Source: Shigella phage Sf14
Sequence record: MF327003
Length of the DNA: 64,000 bases
Direction: 5' to 3' (one strand)
In this document: in pieces, positions 14,151-18,762 of the stretch
Layout: each line of letters opens with the position of its first letter
Numbering within the stretch: the stretch's first letter is position 1
Notes under the pieces: model-generated
Database searches by the model: none
What the model was told of the DNA's origin: nothing
What the model saw: the letters and a program-made list of their open reading frames with translations, nothing else
Program-made: the position numbers and the translations under genes

Positions 14151-14227
14151 CTCCATTTAGCTCAGCTTGGTAGAGCGTTCCGTTTGGGGCGGTAAGGCCG
14201 AAGGTTCAAGTCCTTCAATGGAGACCA
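14151..14227 (+). tRNA. tRNA-Pro (anticodon TGG)
   Basis: hand-folded cloverleaf: acceptor CTCCATT/AATGGAG, T-arm GAAGG-TTCAAGT-CCTTC, CCA encoded. Confidence 0.8.
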
Positions 14228-14233
14228 AATTAT

Positions 14234-14311
14234 ATTCCCGTAGACAAATTAGGTAAAGTCAACACCCTTTCAAGGTGTGGTTTGAGGGTTCAAGTCCCTT
14301 CGGGAATGCCA
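14234..14311 (+). tRNA. tRNA-Glu (TTC)
   Basis: acceptor ATTCCCG/CGGGAAT, anticodon stem ACACC/GGTGT, loop CTTTCAA. Confidence 0.7.
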
Positions 14312-14318
14312 GTTTTGA

Positions 14319-14388
14319 CAGAAGACCAATTACAGCAAACAAACTTTTAAATTTCGCGCATAGAAATCCAAAAACGATTTGGTCTGGT
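14319..14388 (+). ncRNA. structured repeat element copy 1 (CAGAAGACC..TACAGCAAACA .. GGTCTGGT)
   Basis: 7-bp closing stem AGACCAA/TTGGTCT. Confidence 0.4.
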
Positions 14389-14398
14389 CATTAAGAAT

Positions 14399-14475
14399 TG
14401 CGGGTATAGAGAAAGGGTGTCTCACATGTCTCATTAGCATGTTATCGGTAGGTTCGACTCCTACACCCGCCTCCA
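14399..14475 (+). tRNA. tRNA-Met/fMet/Ile2 class (CAT), 1-72 mismatch
   Basis: T-arm GTAGG-TTCGACT-CCTAC, anticodon loop CTCATTA, CCA encoded. Confidence 0.6.
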
Positions 14476-14481
14476 AATTTA

Positions 14482-14548
14482 CAGAAGGCCGTTTACAGCA
14501 AACACTTAAAATTTTTTATAGGCAAAAAAATGAAAAGATACGGTCTGG
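14482..14548 (+). ncRNA. structured repeat element copy 2
   Basis: closing stem AGGCCGT/ACGGTCT (G-U wobble), conserved TTTACAGCAAACA. Confidence 0.4.
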
Positions 14549-14560
14549 TAATACTAACAT

Positions 14561-14637
14561 GGTTAGGAAGCACATAAGGCATGTGCGGTCGGCTGTTAAC
14601 CGAATGGTACAGGGTTCGAATCCCTGACTAACCGCCA
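14561..14637 (+). tRNA. tRNA-Asn (GTT)
   Basis: D-arm GCAC/GTGC, anticodon loop CTGTTAA, T-arm CAGGG-TTCGAAT-CCCTG, CCA. Confidence 0.7.
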
Positions 14638-14706
14638 AGATTTGGGAGAGAAGCTATTGCTCACCGATTTGTAAGGTGCAAGTCCTTAGCCTGAATAGAA
14701 TAAAAT

Positions 14707-14794
14707 GCGTCGTTATCCCGTAGATGGAAGCGGTGGTGACTGTAAATCACTTGTCATTATGACTCGGTAGGTTCGACTCCTTCACGGCGCACCA
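14707..14794 (+). tRNA. tRNA-Tyr (GTA), type II
   Basis: acceptor GCGTCGT/ACGGCGC, anticodon loop CTGTAAA, long variable arm GTCAT/ATGAC. Confidence 0.7.
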
Positions 14795-14800
14795 AATAAA

Positions 14801-14877
14801 GGTTATGTAGTTTAACTGGTCAAAATACCTCCCTGTCACGGAGGATGATGAGGGTTCGAATCCCTTCGTAACCGCCA
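14801..14877 (+). tRNA. tRNA-Asp (GTC)
   Basis: anticodon stem CCTCC/GGAGG loop CTGTCAC, CCA encoded. Confidence 0.75.
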
Positions 14878-14930
14878 AATTATAATAAGTATTTCAAAAT
14901 GATGTTTGAGAGGGCTTTTTAGCCCCTCCC

Positions 14931-14958
14931 TTAAAGAGTTCTTACGAGTATTCTTTAA
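14931..14958 (+). ncRNA. hairpin motif copy A with conserved loop GTTCTTACGAG
   Basis: stem TTAAAGA/TCTTTAA around 11-mer loop core. Confidence 0.45.
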
Positions 14959-14963
14959 AGGAG

Positions 14964-15038
14964 CAGAAGACCAAATACAGCAAGCAATTTTACTATTTCA
15001 AGCCAATTTAATTTGAAAAATTTAAAACTTGGTCTGGT
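14964..15038 (+). ncRNA. structured repeat element copy 3
   Basis: closing stem AGACCAA/TTGGTCT. Confidence 0.4.
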
Positions 15039-15051
15039 TCCAACAATTTTA

Positions 15052-15178
15052 CAGAAGACCGTTTACAGCAAACAATAAACAATCTATTTCTCTTATAAAG
15101 AAAAGGCGAAGGTTCAATTCCTTCACACGTTACGGCGTGTTGGTGTAATGGAAGCACTTAAGATAAATACGGTCTGGT
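15052..15178 (+). ncRNA. structured repeat element copy 4, contains tRNA T-arm-like GAAGG-TTCAATT-CCTTC
   Basis: closing stem AGACCGT/ACGGTCT; internal T-arm mimic and ACACG..CGTGT hairpin. Confidence 0.4.
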
Positions 15179-15327
15179 AATCCTCTTTGCAGTGACTTAT
15201 GGAGCTAACCAGTCGTCCCATGAGTGCCGATGAGTTTCTTGAGCATGATTCTAGATTAGCTTACTAAGAGACAACTCTACAAACCCTTTAGCAAGGTTTG
15301 CGTAGGTTACTGCAAAGATGATTTAAT

Positions 15328-15403
15328 GGAAGTGTAGCAGAATGGTGATGCGGCAGACTTTTAATCTGACAGGCGACGGGTTCGAATCCCTCCACTTCTA
15401 CCA
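15328..15403 (+). tRNA. tRNA-Lys (TTT)
   Basis: acceptor GGAAGTG/CACTTCT, anticodon loop CTTTTAA, CCA. Confidence 0.75.
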
Positions 15404-15407
15404 ATAT

Positions 15408-17066: not shown

Positions 17067-17067
17067 A

Positions 17068-17145
17068 GTTCCAGTATCCCAATTGGCAGAGGATGCAAGC
17101 TCAAACCTTGTATTAGTGACGGTTCGAATCCGTCTTGGAACACCA
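17068..17145 (+). tRNA. tRNA with Leu anticodon CAA, short variable arm
   Basis: acceptor GTTCCAG/TTGGAAC, anticodon stem GCAAG/CTTGT loop CTCAAAC, A73, CCA. Confidence 0.6.
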
Positions 17146-17161
17146 ATTTTAGGAGATTCCT

Positions 17162-17371
17162 ATGAAGCCTTATGGTAGACATGGTAAAGTTGAAATTGCA
17201 AGTTGTGGCTGCTGTGCAGCGCATGATGAAGAAGATTATTACAAATGGCGTACAGACCATCGTAAACGCTTTCTCAGAAGAGATAAGAAGAGAGCTAGAC
17301 AGGAATCTCAAAAGGATATTGCAGAATTAGTTCAAATGGACAGAGCAGCAACCTACGAAGTTGTTAGTTAG
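17162..17371 (+). CDS. candidate small basic Cys-containing protein (69 aa) inside tRNA island
   Basis: AGGAG 7 nt upstream of ATG; 3' end overlaps tRNA-Arg by ~50 nt so may be spurious. Confidence 0.3.
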   Translation: MKPYGRHGKVEIASCGCCAAHDEEDYYKWRTDHRKRFLRRDKKRARQESQKDIAELVQMDRAATYEVVS

Positions 17372-17397
17372 GGGTTCGAACCCTCTATTCTGCACCA
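17321..17397 (+). tRNA. tRNA-Arg (ACG)
   Basis: acceptor GCAGAAT/ATTCTGC perfect, loop CTACGAA, CCA. Confidence 0.7.
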
Positions 17398-17405
17398 AAT
17401 TTAAT

Positions 17406-17481
17406 AGGGGATTAGTTTACAAGGTTAAAACCTCGGTCTTTGAAATCGAAGAAGATGGTTCAATTCCATCATCCCCCGCCA
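17406..17481 (+). tRNA. tRNA-Gln (TTG)
   Basis: anticodon stem TCGGT/ATCGA loop CTTTGAA, weak 1-72 pair and G73, CCA. Confidence 0.65.
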
Positions 17482-17483
17482 AC

Positions 17484-17562
17484 GCTCCATTACTCCAATT
17501 GGCAGAGAGGCCAGATTTAAAATCTGTGTTATGTATCGGTTCGAATCCGATATGGAGTACCA
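17484..17562 (+). tRNA. tRNA with Leu anticodon TAA, short variable arm
   Basis: acceptor GCTCCAT/ATGGAGT, loop TTTAAAA, A73, CCA. Confidence 0.6.
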
Positions 17563-17568
17563 AATATT

Positions 17569-17644
17569 AGCAGTATAGCATAACTGGCAATGCTCCAGCC
17601 TCTGAAGCTGAAAGATTAAGGTTCAAATCCTTATACTGCTGCCA
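17569..17644 (+). tRNA. tRNA-Gln (CTG)
   Basis: acceptor AGCAGTA/TACTGCT perfect, loop CTCTGAA, CCA. Confidence 0.65.
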
Positions 17645-17647
17645 CTT

Positions 17648-17673
17648 CTAAGGGTTCTTACGAGAGTCCTTAA
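17648..17673 (+). ncRNA. hairpin motif copy C with loop GTTCTTACGAG
   Basis: stem TAAGG/CCTTA (compensatory relative to copy A) around identical 11-mer. Confidence 0.45.
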
Positions 17674-17675
17674 AT

Positions 17676-17752
17676 GTGGCCTTATCATAAATGGATAATG
17701 ACCCATACTGTGAACATGGTCTATACGGGTTCGATTCCCGTAGGTCACCCCA
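17676..17752 (+). tRNA. tRNA-His (GTG)
   Basis: loop CTGTGAA, discriminator C73, T-arm ACGGG/CCCGT, CCA; no encoded G-1. Confidence 0.6.
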
Positions 17753-17758
17753 ATTTCA

Positions 17759-17835
17759 TAGCTCAATTAGCTTATATGGTTAAAGCGCGTGTCTGAAAAA
17801 CATGAGAACAGGGTTCAAATCCCGATGGGCTACCA
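17759..17835 (+). tRNA. tRNA-Phe-like (GAA), irregular D-arm/acceptor register
   Basis: anticodon stem CGTGT/ACATG loop CTGAAAA; acceptor pairing ambiguous. Confidence 0.45.
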
Positions 17836-17851
17836 ACTTTATAGGTGCATA

Positions 17852-18586
17852 ATGAAAGAGATGACAGAACAAAGTAAAGAGATTTTTAATCTTCTTAAAA
17901 CTGGTAATGGTTTCTCAAACCCTCTTATTACTGGTGCAGCAGTTCTTGGTGGTACTATAGCTGCCTCTCAATCATTAGTTAACTCAATTAGTTCTGTAAC
18001 AGACCCAGCTACACAACAGATTTTAGTTGCTGCTGGACTGACAACAGCCTTATTAGGAAGCTTCACAACAAGCCTTGGAAGTACAACTTCAACGACAAGT
18101 ACACTTACTGAGTATGGACAAAAGTCTGTAGATGAGTTTTCACAACGTATGCAAGTAGCTAAAGGTTACTCTAACGTTATGGGAGCAGCAGGTGAACAGG
18201 TTGGATGTACACCGTTTAGCGGTATCATGGGCGTAGCTACCGAGTACGGTAATAAAGCGATGGATTTGATTAATACCTCCATAGACGCTGTAAATAGCGT
18301 TCTAAGCGATTTGCAAGATGCAATCGACCAAGGACTAGATACAATCTCTGAACTCGCTACACAGGCCGTTACAGCGATTAATGAGGGTATTGCAAAGATT
18401 ACTGCATATGCTAACGAAGTAACTCAGATGATTGCAGATGAAGCAGCACTGATTGCAGAATATCTGAAAACAAATATTAATGGTTTCCTTGCGAATGTTC
18501 TACCAAGCTGGTTTGATGATTCATGTAAAACTGGTGTGATTGATACTATCGCAACTCCAGAGATGAAAGAAGCTCTGAACAAATAA
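17852..18586 (+). CDS. glycine-zipper membrane protein with helical C-terminal domain (244 aa), embedded in tRNA island
   Basis: start trimmed to ATG 17852 (track start overlaps tRNA); hydrophobic segments LITGAAVLGGTIAAS and ILVAAGLTTALLGSF. Confidence 0.55.
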   Translation: MKEMTEQSKEIFNLLKTGNGFSNPLITGAAVLGGTIAASQSLVNSISSVTDPATQQILVAAGLTTALLGSFTTSLGSTTSTTSTLTEYGQKSVDEFSQRMQVAKGYSNVMGAAGEQVGCTPFSGIMGVATEYGNKAMDLINTSIDAVNSVLSDLQDAIDQGLDTISELATQAVTAINEGIAKITAYANEVTQMIADEAALIAEYLKTNINGFLANVLPSWFDDSCKTGVIDTIATPEMKEALNK

Positions 18587-18587
18587 T

Positions 18588-18680
18588 GGAAGATTAACCC
18601 TAAAAGGTAAGGGAGCAGTTTGCTAAACTGCCAGTAACCGAGAAATCGGCGTACCAGTTCAAGTCTGGTATCTTCCTCCA
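18588..18680 (+). tRNA. tRNA-Ser (GCT), type II
   Basis: acceptor GGAAGAT/ATCTTCC perfect, anticodon stem GCAGT/ACTGC, long variable arm, CCA. Confidence 0.8.
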
Positions 18681-18686
18681 AATTAT

Positions 18687-18762
18687 GTGTCGGTGTCAGA
18701 AATGGTTATGTGCCTGTCTGCAAAACAGGTTTATGAGGGTTCGAGTCCCTTCCGATACTCCA
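18687..18762 (+). tRNA. tRNA-Cys (GCA)
   Basis: anticodon stem CCTGT/ACAGG loop CTGCAAA, CCA. Confidence 0.75.

What the first reader, a model, noticed from the sequence alone, without database searches (positions are those of the whole stretch)
14151..18762. tRNA island encodes a full 20-amino-acid set, including short-variable-arm tRNAs with Leu anticodons and irregular Trp and Phe-like genes
Hand folding gives about 27 tRNAs whose anticodons cover all 20 amino acids. The three genes with Leu anticodons (TAG 16492-16568, CAA 17068-17145, TAA 17484-17562) have A73 but only 5-7 nt variable regions, whereas the Tyr and both Ser genes are long-arm type II. tRNA-Trp has about 8 extra nt between acceptor and D stem, and the Phe(GAA)-like gene has conflicting acceptor/D registers. 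Phage tRNAs with altered loops or architecture have been proposed to escape host anticodon nucleases; the presence of Lys(TTT), Glu, Arg and Thr genes fits that idea.
Basis: partly seen in the sequence, partly recalled or inferred. Interest (0 to 1): 0.55.

Follow-up and report, generated by a model that had tools for sequence, protein, structure and literature searches.

The report
Phage tRNA island with hidden Y-RNAs
This is the known tRNA gene cluster of a Felix-O1-type phage of Shigella/E. coli; its three leucine tRNAs really do lack the usual long extra arm, and between the tRNAs sit four unannotated small RNAs that look like partners of the neighbouring Ro60-like protein.

The parts
12570..13985 (+). 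Ro60-like protein gene (471 aa; Pfam DUF2828 + DUF7788), immediately upstream of the island
14004..14123 (+). Two sigma-70-like promoters (TTGACA-17-TAATAT at 14004-14032; TTGACA-18-TATAGT at 14094-14123) ahead of the first tRNA
   Evidence: These are consensus matches only, and the total number of matches in the region is not above chance.
14151..14311 (+). tRNA-Pro(TGG) 14151-14227 and tRNA-Glu(TTC) 14234-14311
14316..14390 (+). Y-RNA-like element A: outer stem UGAC/GUCA, AGA bulge, 7-bp helix AGACCAA/UUGGUCU, conserved UUACAGCAAACA
14399..14475 (+). Atypical tRNA with CAT anticodon (U37, 1:72 mismatch), flanked by elements A and B
   Evidence: Rfam 31.7 bits.
14479..14551 (+). Y-RNA-like element B (UUAC/GUAA; AGGCCGU/ACGGUCU)
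14561..14877 (+). tRNA-Asn(GTT) 14561-14637, tRNA-Tyr(GTA, long arm) 14707-14794, tRNA-Asp(GTC) 14801-14877
14960..15041 (+). Y-RNA-like element C (GGAGC/GUUCC; AGACCAA/UUGGUCU)
15049..15180 (+). Y-RNA-like element D. It has the same terminal stem and encloses a tRNA-like module in YrlA order: hairpin, T arm GAAGG-UUCAAUU-CCUUC, closed acceptor-like stem ACACGU/GCGUGU, D arm GUGU-AAUGGAA-GCAC
   Evidence: Rfam tRNA 30 bits at 15058-15132. MFE fold. Orthologues. Pair counts. RNAalifold.
15328..15562 (+). tRNA-Lys(TTT) 15328-15403, tRNA(CAT) 15408-15484, tRNA-Ile(GAT) 15487-15562
15578..15606 (+). Internal sigma-70-like promoter TTGACA-17-TAAGAT
   Evidence: consensus match only.
15811..15887 (+). 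tRNA-Arg(TCT)
16053..16135 (+). Non-canonical tRNA-Trp(CCA): 7-bp acceptor, invariant 8-nt linker GAUGUUAA, D arm with a bulged A, G73, CCA
   Evidence: Pair counts: 99.1% paired, 5 pairs changed on both sides.
16149..16238 (+). tRNA-Ser(TGA), long arm; the only gene without a full encoded CCA
16492..16568 (+). Short-arm tRNA-Leu(TAG): variable loop CAGU, D loop CAACUGGAAGA, A73
   Evidence: Orthologues.
16576..17066 (+). tRNA-Lys(CTT) 16576-16651, Ala(TGC) 16658-16733, Gly(TCC) 16740-16814, Thr(TGT) 16821-16896, Val(TAC) 16992-17066
17068..17145 (+). Short-arm tRNA-Leu(CAA): variable loop UUAGU, D loop CAAUUGGCAGA, A73
17162..17371 (+). Small ORF (69 aa, phrog_10765) overlapping the start of tRNA-Arg(ACG)
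   Evidence: Annotated as Sf17 gp24.
17321..17481 (+). tRNA-Arg(ACG) 17321-17397 and tRNA-Gln(TTG) 17406-17481
17484..17562 (+). Short-arm tRNA-Leu(TAA): variable loop GUUAUGU (7 nt), D loop CAAUUGGCAGA, A73
17569..17835 (+). tRNA-Gln(CTG) 17569-17644, tRNA-His(GTG) 17676-17752 (no encoded G-1), irregular tRNA-Phe(GAA) 17760-17835
17852..18586 (+). Protein gene inside the island (DUF7217; annotated as a predicted membrane protein in Sf17)
18588..18762 (+). tRNA-Ser(GCT, long arm) 18588-18680 and tRNA-Cys(GCA) 18687-18762

Best explanation
The region is the conserved, rightward-transcribed RNA island of an Ounavirinae (Mooglevirus) myovirus. It holds 27 tRNA genes whose anticodons cover all 20 amino acids, and these supply the phage with its own decoding set during infection. 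The three Leu genes are genuine tRNA-Leu that have lost the long variable arm. They keep the elements that E. coli LeuRS reads: A73, the A15:U48 pair, G18G19 and A20a in an 11-nt D loop on a 3-bp D stem. The host enzyme should therefore charge them with leucine. The arm can be lost only here because LeuRS ignores it, whereas SerRS needs it, so Ser and Tyr stay long. The Trp and Phe genes are structurally irregular but are maintained by selection. The island is also an RNP locus. The gene just upstream encodes a divergent Ro60-type ring protein. Four small RNAs between the first tRNAs (14316-15180) have the layout of Y RNAs. Their 5' and 3' ends pair into a bulged stem next to a conserved single-stranded UWCMGCAA motif, and one of them carries a YrlA-type tRNA mimic. 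They are most likely the RNA partners of that protein. Shown here: the gene content, the structures, the covariation, the protein fold and the genomic association. Inferred: charging by host synthetases, expression, and binding of the protein to the RNAs.
For: Identity of the locus: 98.5% identical to Shigella phage ESh20, and 355 phage records match. Relatives carry the same tRNA annotation.

Leu genes: ARAGORN structures are. The D loop CAAUUGGCAGA compares with GAAUUGGUAGA in E. coli tRNA-Leu(CAG), whose sequence was verified. The variable region is 4-7 nt against 15 nt in E. coli. The identity set and the dispensability of the arm come from PMC9976931. tRNAscan isotype models rank Leu first for the Sf14 orthologues (PMC12482277). 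Short-arm Leu genes are present in FelixO1, VpaE1_ev78, Si3, Pectobacterium phage Arno162 and Yersinia phage P778. They also occur in three unrelated IMG/VR phages, while 30 of 31 Ser and 2 of 2 Tyr genes there are long. T5 tRNA-Leu is 85 nt.

Trp gene: 5 pairs changed on both sides, 99.1% of cells paired, and the slide controls collapse.

Phe gene: the acceptor stem shows compensatory changes between the window and FelixO1.

Y-like RNAs: the terminal stem is 99.7% paired, 5 of 11 pairs changed on both sides, and the slide controls drop to 21-44%. In element D the acceptor-like stem covaries (ACACG/CGUGU, ACUCG/CGAGU, ACCCUUC/GAAGGGU) and the T and D arms are nearly invariant. The module order V-T-AS-D matches YrlA (PMC4201824). 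Yersinia phage P778 has the same architecture with a different helix sequence. In 75 loci encoding homologues about 40% identical, the pattern occurs 116 times on the gene strand and 14 times on the opposite strand. Density is 0.41 per kb within 1.5 kb of the gene and 0.045 per kb beyond it. No hit lies inside the gene. Of 43 loci with no tRNA, 27 still carry the element.
Against: No expression, processing or charging data exist for this phage in what I could search. tRNA-His lacks an encoded G-1, and one CAT tRNA has U37 and a 1:72 mismatch, so not every gene need be a good substrate for host enzymes. The Y-like elements do not match Rfam's YrlA model. They also lack the exact GNCGAAN0-1G motif of bacterial Y RNAs. 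The similarity of the protein to Ro60 exists only at the fold level: Pfam gives no TROVE hit, and sequence and profile searches of PDB find nothing. The orthologues of element D are closely related, so most of its helices never vary. My pattern scan was designed from this family, so its absolute hit counts are not unbiased. The strand and distance contrasts serve as the control.
Confidence: 0.8

Rival explanations
1. Nuclease escape. On this view the short Leu arms, the extended Trp linker and other departures from host tRNA structure exist to make the phage tRNAs invisible to host tRNA-directed nucleases or toxins. Translation would then continue when host tRNAs are cut.
For: The concept is established for mycobacteriophage tRNAs and for T5 (PMC10264068 is listed; PMC11555353). 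Twelve of the 25 Sf14 orthologues compared differ from the host in the anticodon loop, and Leu(UAG) differs at three positions (PMC12482277). A toxin that reads the long variable loop exists: MenT3 acts on tRNA-Ser (PMC11162799). Short-arm Leu genes recur in unrelated phages.
Against: The loops of Lys(UUU), Arg(UCU), Arg(ACG), Thr, Tyr, Asn and Asp are identical to the host's. These include the isoacceptors I know to be targets of E. coli anticodon nucleases, and that target list rests on my own knowledge. No nuclease or toxin is known that recognises tRNA-Leu through its long arm. In vivo, MenT3 does not deplete Leu-tRNA. The authors of the Sf14 study judged nuclease evasion unlikely. The pattern of a short Leu with long Ser and Tyr is fully predicted by synthetase tolerance alone.
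Confidence: 0.2
2. Decay. On this view the irregular genes (Trp with its 8-nt linker, Phe with a shortened T arm, His without G-1, the CAT gene with U37, and the short Leu genes) are pseudogenes drifting in a cluster that the phage mostly does not need.
For: tRNA genes of the related phage Bas63 were mostly non-essential in the laboratory (PMC11482910). GenBank records flag His and Tyr as pseudo in FelixO1, and flag several genes as pseudo in Si3. ARAGORN and Rfam miss Trp, and Tyr falls below their default thresholds. The tRNA complement varies among relatives through HNH endonuclease insertions.
Against: Compensatory double changes preserve the Trp D, anticodon and T stems, and the odd linker is invariant. 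The Phe acceptor stem covaries. The three Leu genes are 92-100% conserved across about 250 phage records, more than the 80% of neighbouring spacers. They keep all identity elements and an encoded CCA.
Confidence: 0.1
3. Processing signals. On this view the four repeats at 14316-15180 are not stand-alone RNAs. They would be cis-acting processing or termination signals for the tRNA precursor, such as RNase III or RNase E sites, and element D would be a leftover of two truncated tRNA genes.
For: The repeats lie between tRNAs in one transcription unit. Their interiors are AT-rich and poorly conserved. Their folding-energy z-scores are unremarkable, -0.7 to -1.4.
Against: The same architecture lies beside homologous Ro60-like genes in 27 of 43 distant loci that have no tRNA at all. 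It is absent from the T5 tRNA region and from the Arno162 locus, which has tRNAs but no adjacent homologue. A conserved single-stranded motif sits next to a covarying helix, which is typical of a protein-binding RNA. The closed acceptor-like stem of element D covaries across three sequence variants, which is not expected of a dead remnant.
Confidence: 0.15

Closest known systems
tRNA clusters of FelixO1-like and Moogle-like phages (for example Shigella phage Sf14, 26 tRNAs for 19 amino acids; PMC12482277)
   Same: The same locus, gene order and tRNAs. The window is 93-98% identical to Sf13-Sf19, Moogle and Mordin.
   Different: The published annotation omits the non-canonical Trp gene, which is why it counts 19 amino acids. 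That paper never uses the word 'variable', so it does not mention the Leu variable arm. It also does not mention the Y-like RNAs or the Ro60-like nature of the upstream gene.
Type-I tRNA-Leu of animal mitochondria, and engineered E. coli tRNA-Leu variants lacking the long arm
   Same: A Leu-accepting tRNA without a long variable arm, whose identity rests on A73 and the D/T-loop core (PMC9976931).
   Different: Here it is a natural tRNA in bacterial format, encoded by a virus. It has an intact E. coli-type D arm and an encoded CCA, and it presumably uses the host's bacterial LeuRS.
Bacterial Ro60 (Rsr) with YrlA/YrlB Y RNAs, including those of mycobacteriophages (Chen et al. 2014, PMC4201824)
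   Same: A ring protein with a vWA domain. Small RNAs are encoded within about 1 kb on the same strand. The RNA ends pair into a stem. One RNA has a tRNA-like module in the order V, T arm, closed acceptor-like stem, D arm. Several paralogous RNAs occur per locus.
   Different: The protein is a DUF2828/DUF7788 family with no TROVE sequence match. The RNAs do not hit Rfam's YrlA model. The 5' motif is CAGAAG or AGRNNNN rather than GNCGAAN0-1G. A distinct single-stranded UWCMGCAA motif is conserved. In this phage the RNAs are interleaved with tRNA genes.
Bas63 gp130 (PhageMaP preprint, PMC11482910)
   Same: The homologous gene in a Felixounavirus. It was noted to resemble Ro60 structurally, to sit upstream of the tRNAs and to counter the Ppl defence system. 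The authors guessed that some annotated 'tRNAs' might be Y RNAs.
   Different: No RNA was identified there. Here the candidates are the unannotated spacer elements, not the annotated tRNAs.
T5 tRNA region with 'tRNA-like stable RNAs of unknown function'
   Same: A tRNA island interspersed with small stable RNAs, HNH endonuclease genes and small ORFs. It includes an unusually short (71-nt) Trp tRNA.
   Different: T5 tRNA-Leu is a normal 85-nt long-arm tRNA, and the Y-like stem-and-motif pattern is absent from the T5 tRNA region.

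Membership tests
tRNA (Rfam RF00005) | Cloverleaf scoring at or above the family gathering score (29 bits) | tested here: met
   25 of the 27 genes reach 31.7-67 bits. Tyr scores 22.8 bits. Trp matches only the tRNA-Sec model, at 21.5 bits. These two rest on ARAGORN at a low threshold, on tRNAscan annotation in relatives, and on covariation.
Bacterial class II (long-arm) tRNA-Leu | Variable arm of 10 or more nt forming a stem-loop | tested here: not met
   Variable loops are 4, 5 and 7 nt, against 15 nt in E. 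coli tRNA-Leu(CAG).
Substrates of E. coli LeuRS (identity set as reviewed in PMC9976931) | A73; A15:U48 Levitt pair; G18G19 and A20a in the D loop; intact D/T-loop core | tested here: met
   All three genes have A73, the D loop C-A14-A15-U/C-U-G18-G19-N-A20a-G-A, a U at the last variable-loop position, and T loop UUCGAAU.
Substrates of E. coli LeuRS | Actual leucylation | not testable with these tools
   This needs an aminoacylation assay. tRNAscan isotype models rank Leu first for the Sf14 orthologues.
tRNA-Trp | CCA anticodon and G73 discriminator (the E. coli TrpRS determinants, from my own knowledge) | tested here: met
   Loop CUCCAAA and GUCCCAU-G-CCA at 16053-16135.
tRNA-Trp | Canonical geometry with 2 nt between the acceptor and D stems | tested here: not met
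   The linker is the 8-nt GAUGUUAA, invariant in 6 sequence variants from more than 30 loci.
Ro60 / TROVE proteins | HEAT-repeat ring followed by a vWA domain with a MIDAS motif | tested here: met
   [not shown]
Ro60 / TROVE proteins | Match to the TROVE sequence family | tested here: not met
   Pfam gives only DUF2828 and DUF7788. phmmer and a profile search against PDB find no Ro60.
Y RNA, YrlA type (Rfam RF02553; Chen et al. 2014) | Encoded within 4 kb of the Ro60 gene on the same strand | tested here: met
   Elements lie 331-1064 nt downstream of the stop codon on the + strand. The enrichment is general across 75 loci.
Y RNA, YrlA type | 5' and 3' ends pair into a stem that carries the protein-binding site | tested here: met
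   The bulged two-part stem is 99.7% paired, with 5 of 11 pairs changed on both sides.
Y RNA, YrlA type | tRNA-like module in the order V, T arm, closed acceptor-like stem, D arm | tested here: met
   Element D only. The order is as described in PMC4201824.
Y RNA, YrlA type | GNCGAAN0-1G motif near the 5' end | tested here: not met
   The 5' strand reads CAGAAGACC, and distant members read AGRNNNN.
Y RNA, YrlA type | Score against the Rfam covariance model | tested here: not met
   There is no RF02553 match on elements A-D at E up to 10, even in a 1-kb search.
Y RNA | Binding to the Ro60 protein | not testable with these tools
   This needs RIP or gel-shift experiments.
Circularly permuted tRNA gene | 3' half followed by 5' half, rejoined to give a tRNA with a free acceptor end and a closed anticodon arm | tested here: not met
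   In 15049-15180 the acceptor-like stem is closed by a 4-8 nt loop with no CCA. The position of the anticodon stem is taken by the terminal stem that elements A-C, which have no tRNA parts, also share.
Nuclease-evading phage tRNAs (van den Berg et al. model) | Anticodon-loop differences from the host in the isoacceptors that nucleases target | tested here: not met
   The Lys(UUU), Arg, Thr, Tyr, Asn and Asp loops are identical to the host's. Twelve others differ, mostly at positions 32 and 38.

The most novel reading that the evidence does not exclude
The four spacer elements at 14316-15180 would be founding members of an undescribed, widespread family of phage Y-type RNAs. The family's consensus is a terminal helix 5'-AGRNNNN / NNNNYCU-G-3' beside a single-stranded UWCMGCAA motif, sometimes carrying a tRNA mimic. 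These RNAs would be the partners of a divergent Ro60 family (DUF2828 plus vWA) found in many tailed phages. In Felix-O1-type phages this RNP would work with the tRNA island in tRNA and RNA surveillance or in counter-defence, since the Bas63 homologue counters the Ppl system. In parallel, short-arm tRNA-Leu would be a recurrent phage-specific tRNA class.
Probability: 0.55. Interest if true: 0.75.

Novelty: new variant of a known kind. Interest (0 to 1): 0.58.

Why it matters
The tRNA cluster itself is ordinary for this phage family. Three points go beyond what I could find in print.

First, natural bacterial-format tRNA-Leu without the long arm recur in phages. This is an in-vivo confirmation that LeuRS does not need the arm. 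These tRNAs are also ready-made compact scaffolds for tRNA engineering.

Second, the unannotated Trp gene completes a 20-amino-acid set, and it breaks the rule of two nucleotides between the acceptor and D stems.

Third, and most useful, the island contains concrete candidates for the RNA partners of a phage Ro60-like protein that a genetic screen has already linked to defence evasion. This turns a published guess, that some of the tRNAs may be Y RNAs, into specific coordinates and a sequence-structure signature. That signature can be searched for and tested by pull-down.

Tried and rejected
1. Permuted tRNA gene at 15058-15176. This was my first reading of the T arm plus 3' acceptor followed by the 5' acceptor plus D arm. 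I rejected it once the same terminal stem turned up in three elements with no tRNA parts and the layout matched YrlA.

2. Self-cleaving ribozyme, suggested by a hairpin-ribozyme-like CAGAAG...GGUCUGGUAAU. No ribozyme family appears in Rfam even at E up to 10.

3. Rfam YrlA membership. There is no hit on the elements. The only YrlA hit, at 19 bits, lies over the His and Phe tRNAs.

4. The weak Rfam matches to Dictyostelium class I RNA (21-23 bits against a threshold of 41.5). I treat these as a chance reflection of the same 'stem plus adjacent motif' shape.

5. Sequence-level links of the protein to Ro60. Pfam, phmmer and a 39-sequence profile against PDB all found nothing. Only fold comparison shows the relationship.

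6. Literature searches for short-arm tRNA-Leu in phages and for DUF2828 in phages returned nothing relevant.

7. The promoter and terminator scan gave no more matches than shuffled sequence. I therefore cite only the three sites with a perfect TTGACA, and only as inference.

8. Recoding, meaning Leu anticodons charged with another amino acid. No identity element of another synthetase was evident, and the isotype models favour Leu.

Full report
**What the window is.** Bases 14100-18800 are 98.5% identical to Shigella phage ESh20 and 93-98% identical to Sf13-Sf19, Moogle and Mordin. In all, 355 phage records match, almost all of them Ounavirinae. The island lies between a 471-aa gene (12570-13985) and the large terminase gene (19195-20811). 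Relatives carry the same tRNA annotation.

**Checking the observation.**
- ARAGORN finds 25 tRNA genes, all on the + strand, between 14151 and 18762.
- Rfam finds 23 of them at the gathering score in the whole window. His and the first CAT gene pass when less sequence is searched.
- Tyr (14707-14794, 88 nt, long arm) appears only at a lowered ARAGORN threshold. tRNAscan-SE annotates it in Sf17.
- The Trp gene (16053-16135) is missed by both programs.
- The total is therefore 27 genes covering 20 amino acids, and 26 of them encode CCA.

**The Leu genes.**
- ARAGORN's structures give variable loops of 4 nt (TAG), 5 nt (CAA) and 7 nt (TAA). All three have a 3-bp D stem, an 11-nt D loop and A73.
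- E. coli tRNA-Leu(CAG) has a 15-nt variable region. I recalled its sequence and verified it at 100% identity, annotated tRNA-Leu, in 5426 of 5426 genomes.
- The D loop is CAAUUGGCAGA (CAACUGGAAGA in the TAG gene), against GAAUUGGUAGA in E. coli. A14, A15, G18, G19 and A20a are therefore kept. The last variable-loop base is U in all three, which allows the A15:U48 pair.
- The identity review PMC9976931 states that E. coli leucine identity rests on A73, A15:U48, G18G19 and A20a. [quoted passage not shown]
- tRNAscan isotype models rank Leu first for the orthologues in Sf14 (PMC12482277).
- I therefore read these as genuine tRNA-Leu in a short-arm format, charged by the host enzyme. That last step is inferred, not shown.

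**Distribution of short-arm Leu.** The format is not peculiar to this phage. FelixO1, VpaE1_ev78, Si3, Pectobacterium phage Arno162 and Yersinia phage P778 all have 77-79-nt Leu genes. The Gln-Leu(TAA)-Gln block is 92-100% conserved in about 250 records, more than the 80% of nearby spacers. In 75 unrelated metagenomic phage loci fetched for another purpose, plus the T5 locus, 4 of 11 Leu genes are short. The four lie in three different contigs, and each has the tRNA-Leu type of D arm and A73. In the same sample, 30 of 31 Ser genes and 2 of 2 Tyr genes are long. T5 tRNA-Leu is 85 nt. This pattern is what synthetase tolerance predicts. The arm can be lost where the enzyme does not read it, and not where it does. 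I found no description of this in the papers I could search.

**The Trp and Phe genes.** The Trp gene has:
- a perfect acceptor stem ATGGGAC/GTCCCAT, with G73 and CCA;
- the anticodon loop CUCCAAA and a normal T arm;
- 8 nt (GAUGUUAA) between the acceptor and D stems instead of 2, and a bulged A in the D stem.

Six sequence variants from more than 30 loci keep 99.1% of cells paired. Five pairs are changed on both sides: one in the D stem, three in the anticodon stem and one in the T stem. All slid controls fall to 27-49% paired. The linker is invariant. This is selection on a structured RNA, not decay. The published count of 26 tRNAs for 19 amino acids in this phage group misses this gene. One relative, VpaE1_ev78, has a different 71-nt Trp gene at the same place.

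The Phe gene has a 3-nt linker, a mismatch at 7:66 and a T arm one nucleotide short. The same oddities occur in FelixO1, with compensatory acceptor-stem changes.

**The nuclease-escape interpretation.** The anticodon loops of Lys(UUU), both Arg, Thr, Tyr, Asn and Asp equal the host's (Table 8 of PMC12482277). I checked the window's Lys(UUU), both Arg, Thr and Glu loops against its phage column. Glu differs from the host only at position 38. The authors of that study judged nuclease evasion unlikely. Replenishment of depleted tRNAs, shown for T5 tRNA-Tyr against retron Eco7 (PMC11555353), remains possible. A toxin that reads a long variable loop does exist: MenT3 acts on tRNA-Ser. It does not deplete Leu-tRNA in vivo (PMC11162799). 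I rate the escape reading at about 0.2.

**What else is in the island: the repeats.** A repeat search and inspection showed four copies of ACAGAAGRCCNNWUACAGCAAACA ... NNGGUCUGGUAAU, at 14316-14390, 14479-14551, 14960-15041 and 15049-15180. Each folds into:
- an outer stem of 4-5 bp;
- a 3-nt AGA bulge;
- a 7-bp helix AGACCNN/NNGGUCU;
- a single bulged G on the 3' side.

Across 32 distinct end sequences from paralogues and orthologues, 99.7% of cells pair and 5 of 11 pairs change on both sides. The outer stem, for example, reads UUAC/GUAA, UUGC/GCAA, UGAC/GUCA and GAGC/GCUC. Slid controls drop to 21-44%.

The fourth copy, element D, encloses a hairpin, a T arm (GAAGG-UUCAAUU-CCUUC), a closed acceptor-like stem and a D arm (GUGU-AAUGGAA-GCAC). 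This is why Rfam's tRNA model scores 30 bits at 15058-15132. In 19 distinct orthologues the closed stem takes three forms: ACACG/CGUGU, ACUCG/CGAGU and ACCCUUC/GAAGGGU. The T and D arms are nearly invariant. RNAalifold predicts the same helices on its own. I first took this for a permuted tRNA gene. The layout is in fact that of bacterial YrlA Y RNAs, with the ends paired and then V, T, a closed acceptor-like stem and D (PMC4201824).

**Generality of the RNA-protein link.**
- Yersinia phage P778, whose protein is 52% identical, has four elements of the same architecture. Their helices differ (GGACUGU/ACAGUCC, GGAUUC/GAAUCC, GGACUC/GAGUCC), and one contains a T arm.
- I then fetched 75 loci encoding homologues about 40% identical. 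I scanned them for a 7-bp helix, 0-2 nt, WWC[AC]GCAA, and the complementary strand within 175 nt.
- The pattern occurs 116 times on the gene strand, in 63 loci, and 14 times on the opposite strand. Of the 116 hits, 59 lie within 300 nt of the gene and none lies inside it.
- Density is 0.41 per kb within 1.5 kb of the gene, 0.045 per kb further away, and 0.016 per kb on the other strand.
- 27 of the 43 loci without any tRNA still have an element.
- The pattern is absent from the T5 tRNA region and from the Arno162 locus, which has tRNAs but no adjacent homologue.
- The elements therefore follow the Ro60-like gene, not the tRNAs.
- They are not in Rfam 15, and I found no paper on them.
- They fail two YrlA membership tests, the Rfam model and the GNCGAAN0-1G motif. 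I therefore say they work like Y RNAs rather than that they are YrlA.

**Other observations.** Several spacers fold far better than shuffled sequence: 15181-15327 (z -3.9), 15563-15810 (z -3.9), 16897-16991 (z -3.5) and 15888-16054 (z -2.8). They may be further stable RNAs, as annotated in T5. A hairpin with the loop UUCUUACGAG occurs twice, near 14926-14957 and 17649-17672, and is conserved in FelixO1. tRNA-His has T, not G, at position -1. The first CAT gene has U37 and a 1:72 mismatch.

**Verdict.** The tRNA cluster as such is already known. The short-arm Leu genes and the odd Trp gene are real, conserved and apparently undescribed, and ordinary synthetase biology explains them better than nuclease escape does.

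Noticed in passing
window 14316-14390, 14479-14551, 14960-15041, 15049-15180: Four unannotated repeats with a covarying bulged terminal stem and a conserved UUACAGCAAACA motif. The fourth encloses a tRNA-like module (T arm, closed acceptor-like stem, D arm) in the order seen in bacterial YrlA Y RNAs.
   Followed up: yes
[not shown]
   Followed up: yes
L061-L135 (IMG/VR loci encoding homologues about 40% identical), e.g. L131 5684-8831, L133 1454-2123, L082 5643-5981: Elements with the same helix-plus-UWCMGCAA signature cluster on the gene strand next to the homologous gene. Density is 0.41 per kb near the gene and 0.016 per kb on the opposite strand. Some loci hold up to seven copies, and many loci have no tRNA at all.
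   Followed up: yes
L012 (Yersinia phage P778) 1136-1212, 1336-1410, 1783-1880, about 660-800: Four Y-like elements with compensatory helix sequences (GGACUGU/ACAGUCC and others). One carries a T arm. All lie downstream of the homologous 'RNA-binding protein' gene.
   Followed up: partly
L107 12255-12329, L124 681-758, L129 1404-1479 and 8891-8967: Short-arm Leu-anticodon tRNAs with a tRNA-Leu type of D arm and A73 also occur in three unrelated metagenomic phages. Long-arm Leu genes coexist in L124.
   Followed up: partly
window 15181-15327, 15563-15810, 15888-16054, 16897-16991: Spacers between tRNAs fold much better than dinucleotide shuffles (z -2.8 to -3.9). 15181-15327 is a 147-nt rod closed by a stem of about 24 bp. 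16931 carries a degenerate copy of the Y-like 5' motif (CUGAAGACCGUAAC). These may be further stable RNAs, as annotated in T5.
   Followed up: partly
window 14926-14957 and 17649-17672: Two hairpins share the loop UUCUUACGAG. They are conserved at the same places in FelixO1, and a similar hairpin (loop UUUACGAG) occurs in Yersinia phage P778. This may be a processing or protein-binding site.
   Followed up: partly
window 17675-17752: tRNA-His has T rather than G at position -1, so the G-1:C73 element used by bacterial HisRS is not encoded. GenBank flags this gene as pseudo in FelixO1 and Si3.
   Followed up: partly
window 14399-14475: The first CAT-anticodon tRNA has a pyrimidine at position 37, a U1/C72 mismatch and U73. 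It scores only 31.7 bits and sits between Y-like elements A and B. Its identity (initiator-like, elongator Met or Ile2) is unclear.
   Followed up: no
L009 (VpaE1_ev78) 3306-3376; L013 (T5) 15178-15248: One Felixounavirus has replaced the long-linker Trp gene with a different 71-nt Trp tRNA that has a reduced D arm. T5 also has a 71-nt Trp tRNA. I did not test whether the two are related.
   Followed up: no
L008 (FelixO1) 1431-1916, 2404-2796, 3714-4127; L009 2815-3162: HNH and endonuclease VII genes are inserted between tRNAs in relatives. They go along with loss or gain of individual tRNAs: FelixO1 lacks Arg(TCT), and Si3 lacks Leu(CAA).
   Followed up: no
window 17162-17371: A conserved 69-aa ORF (phrog_10765, Sf17 gp24) overlaps the first 51 nt of tRNA-Arg(ACG).
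   Followed up: no
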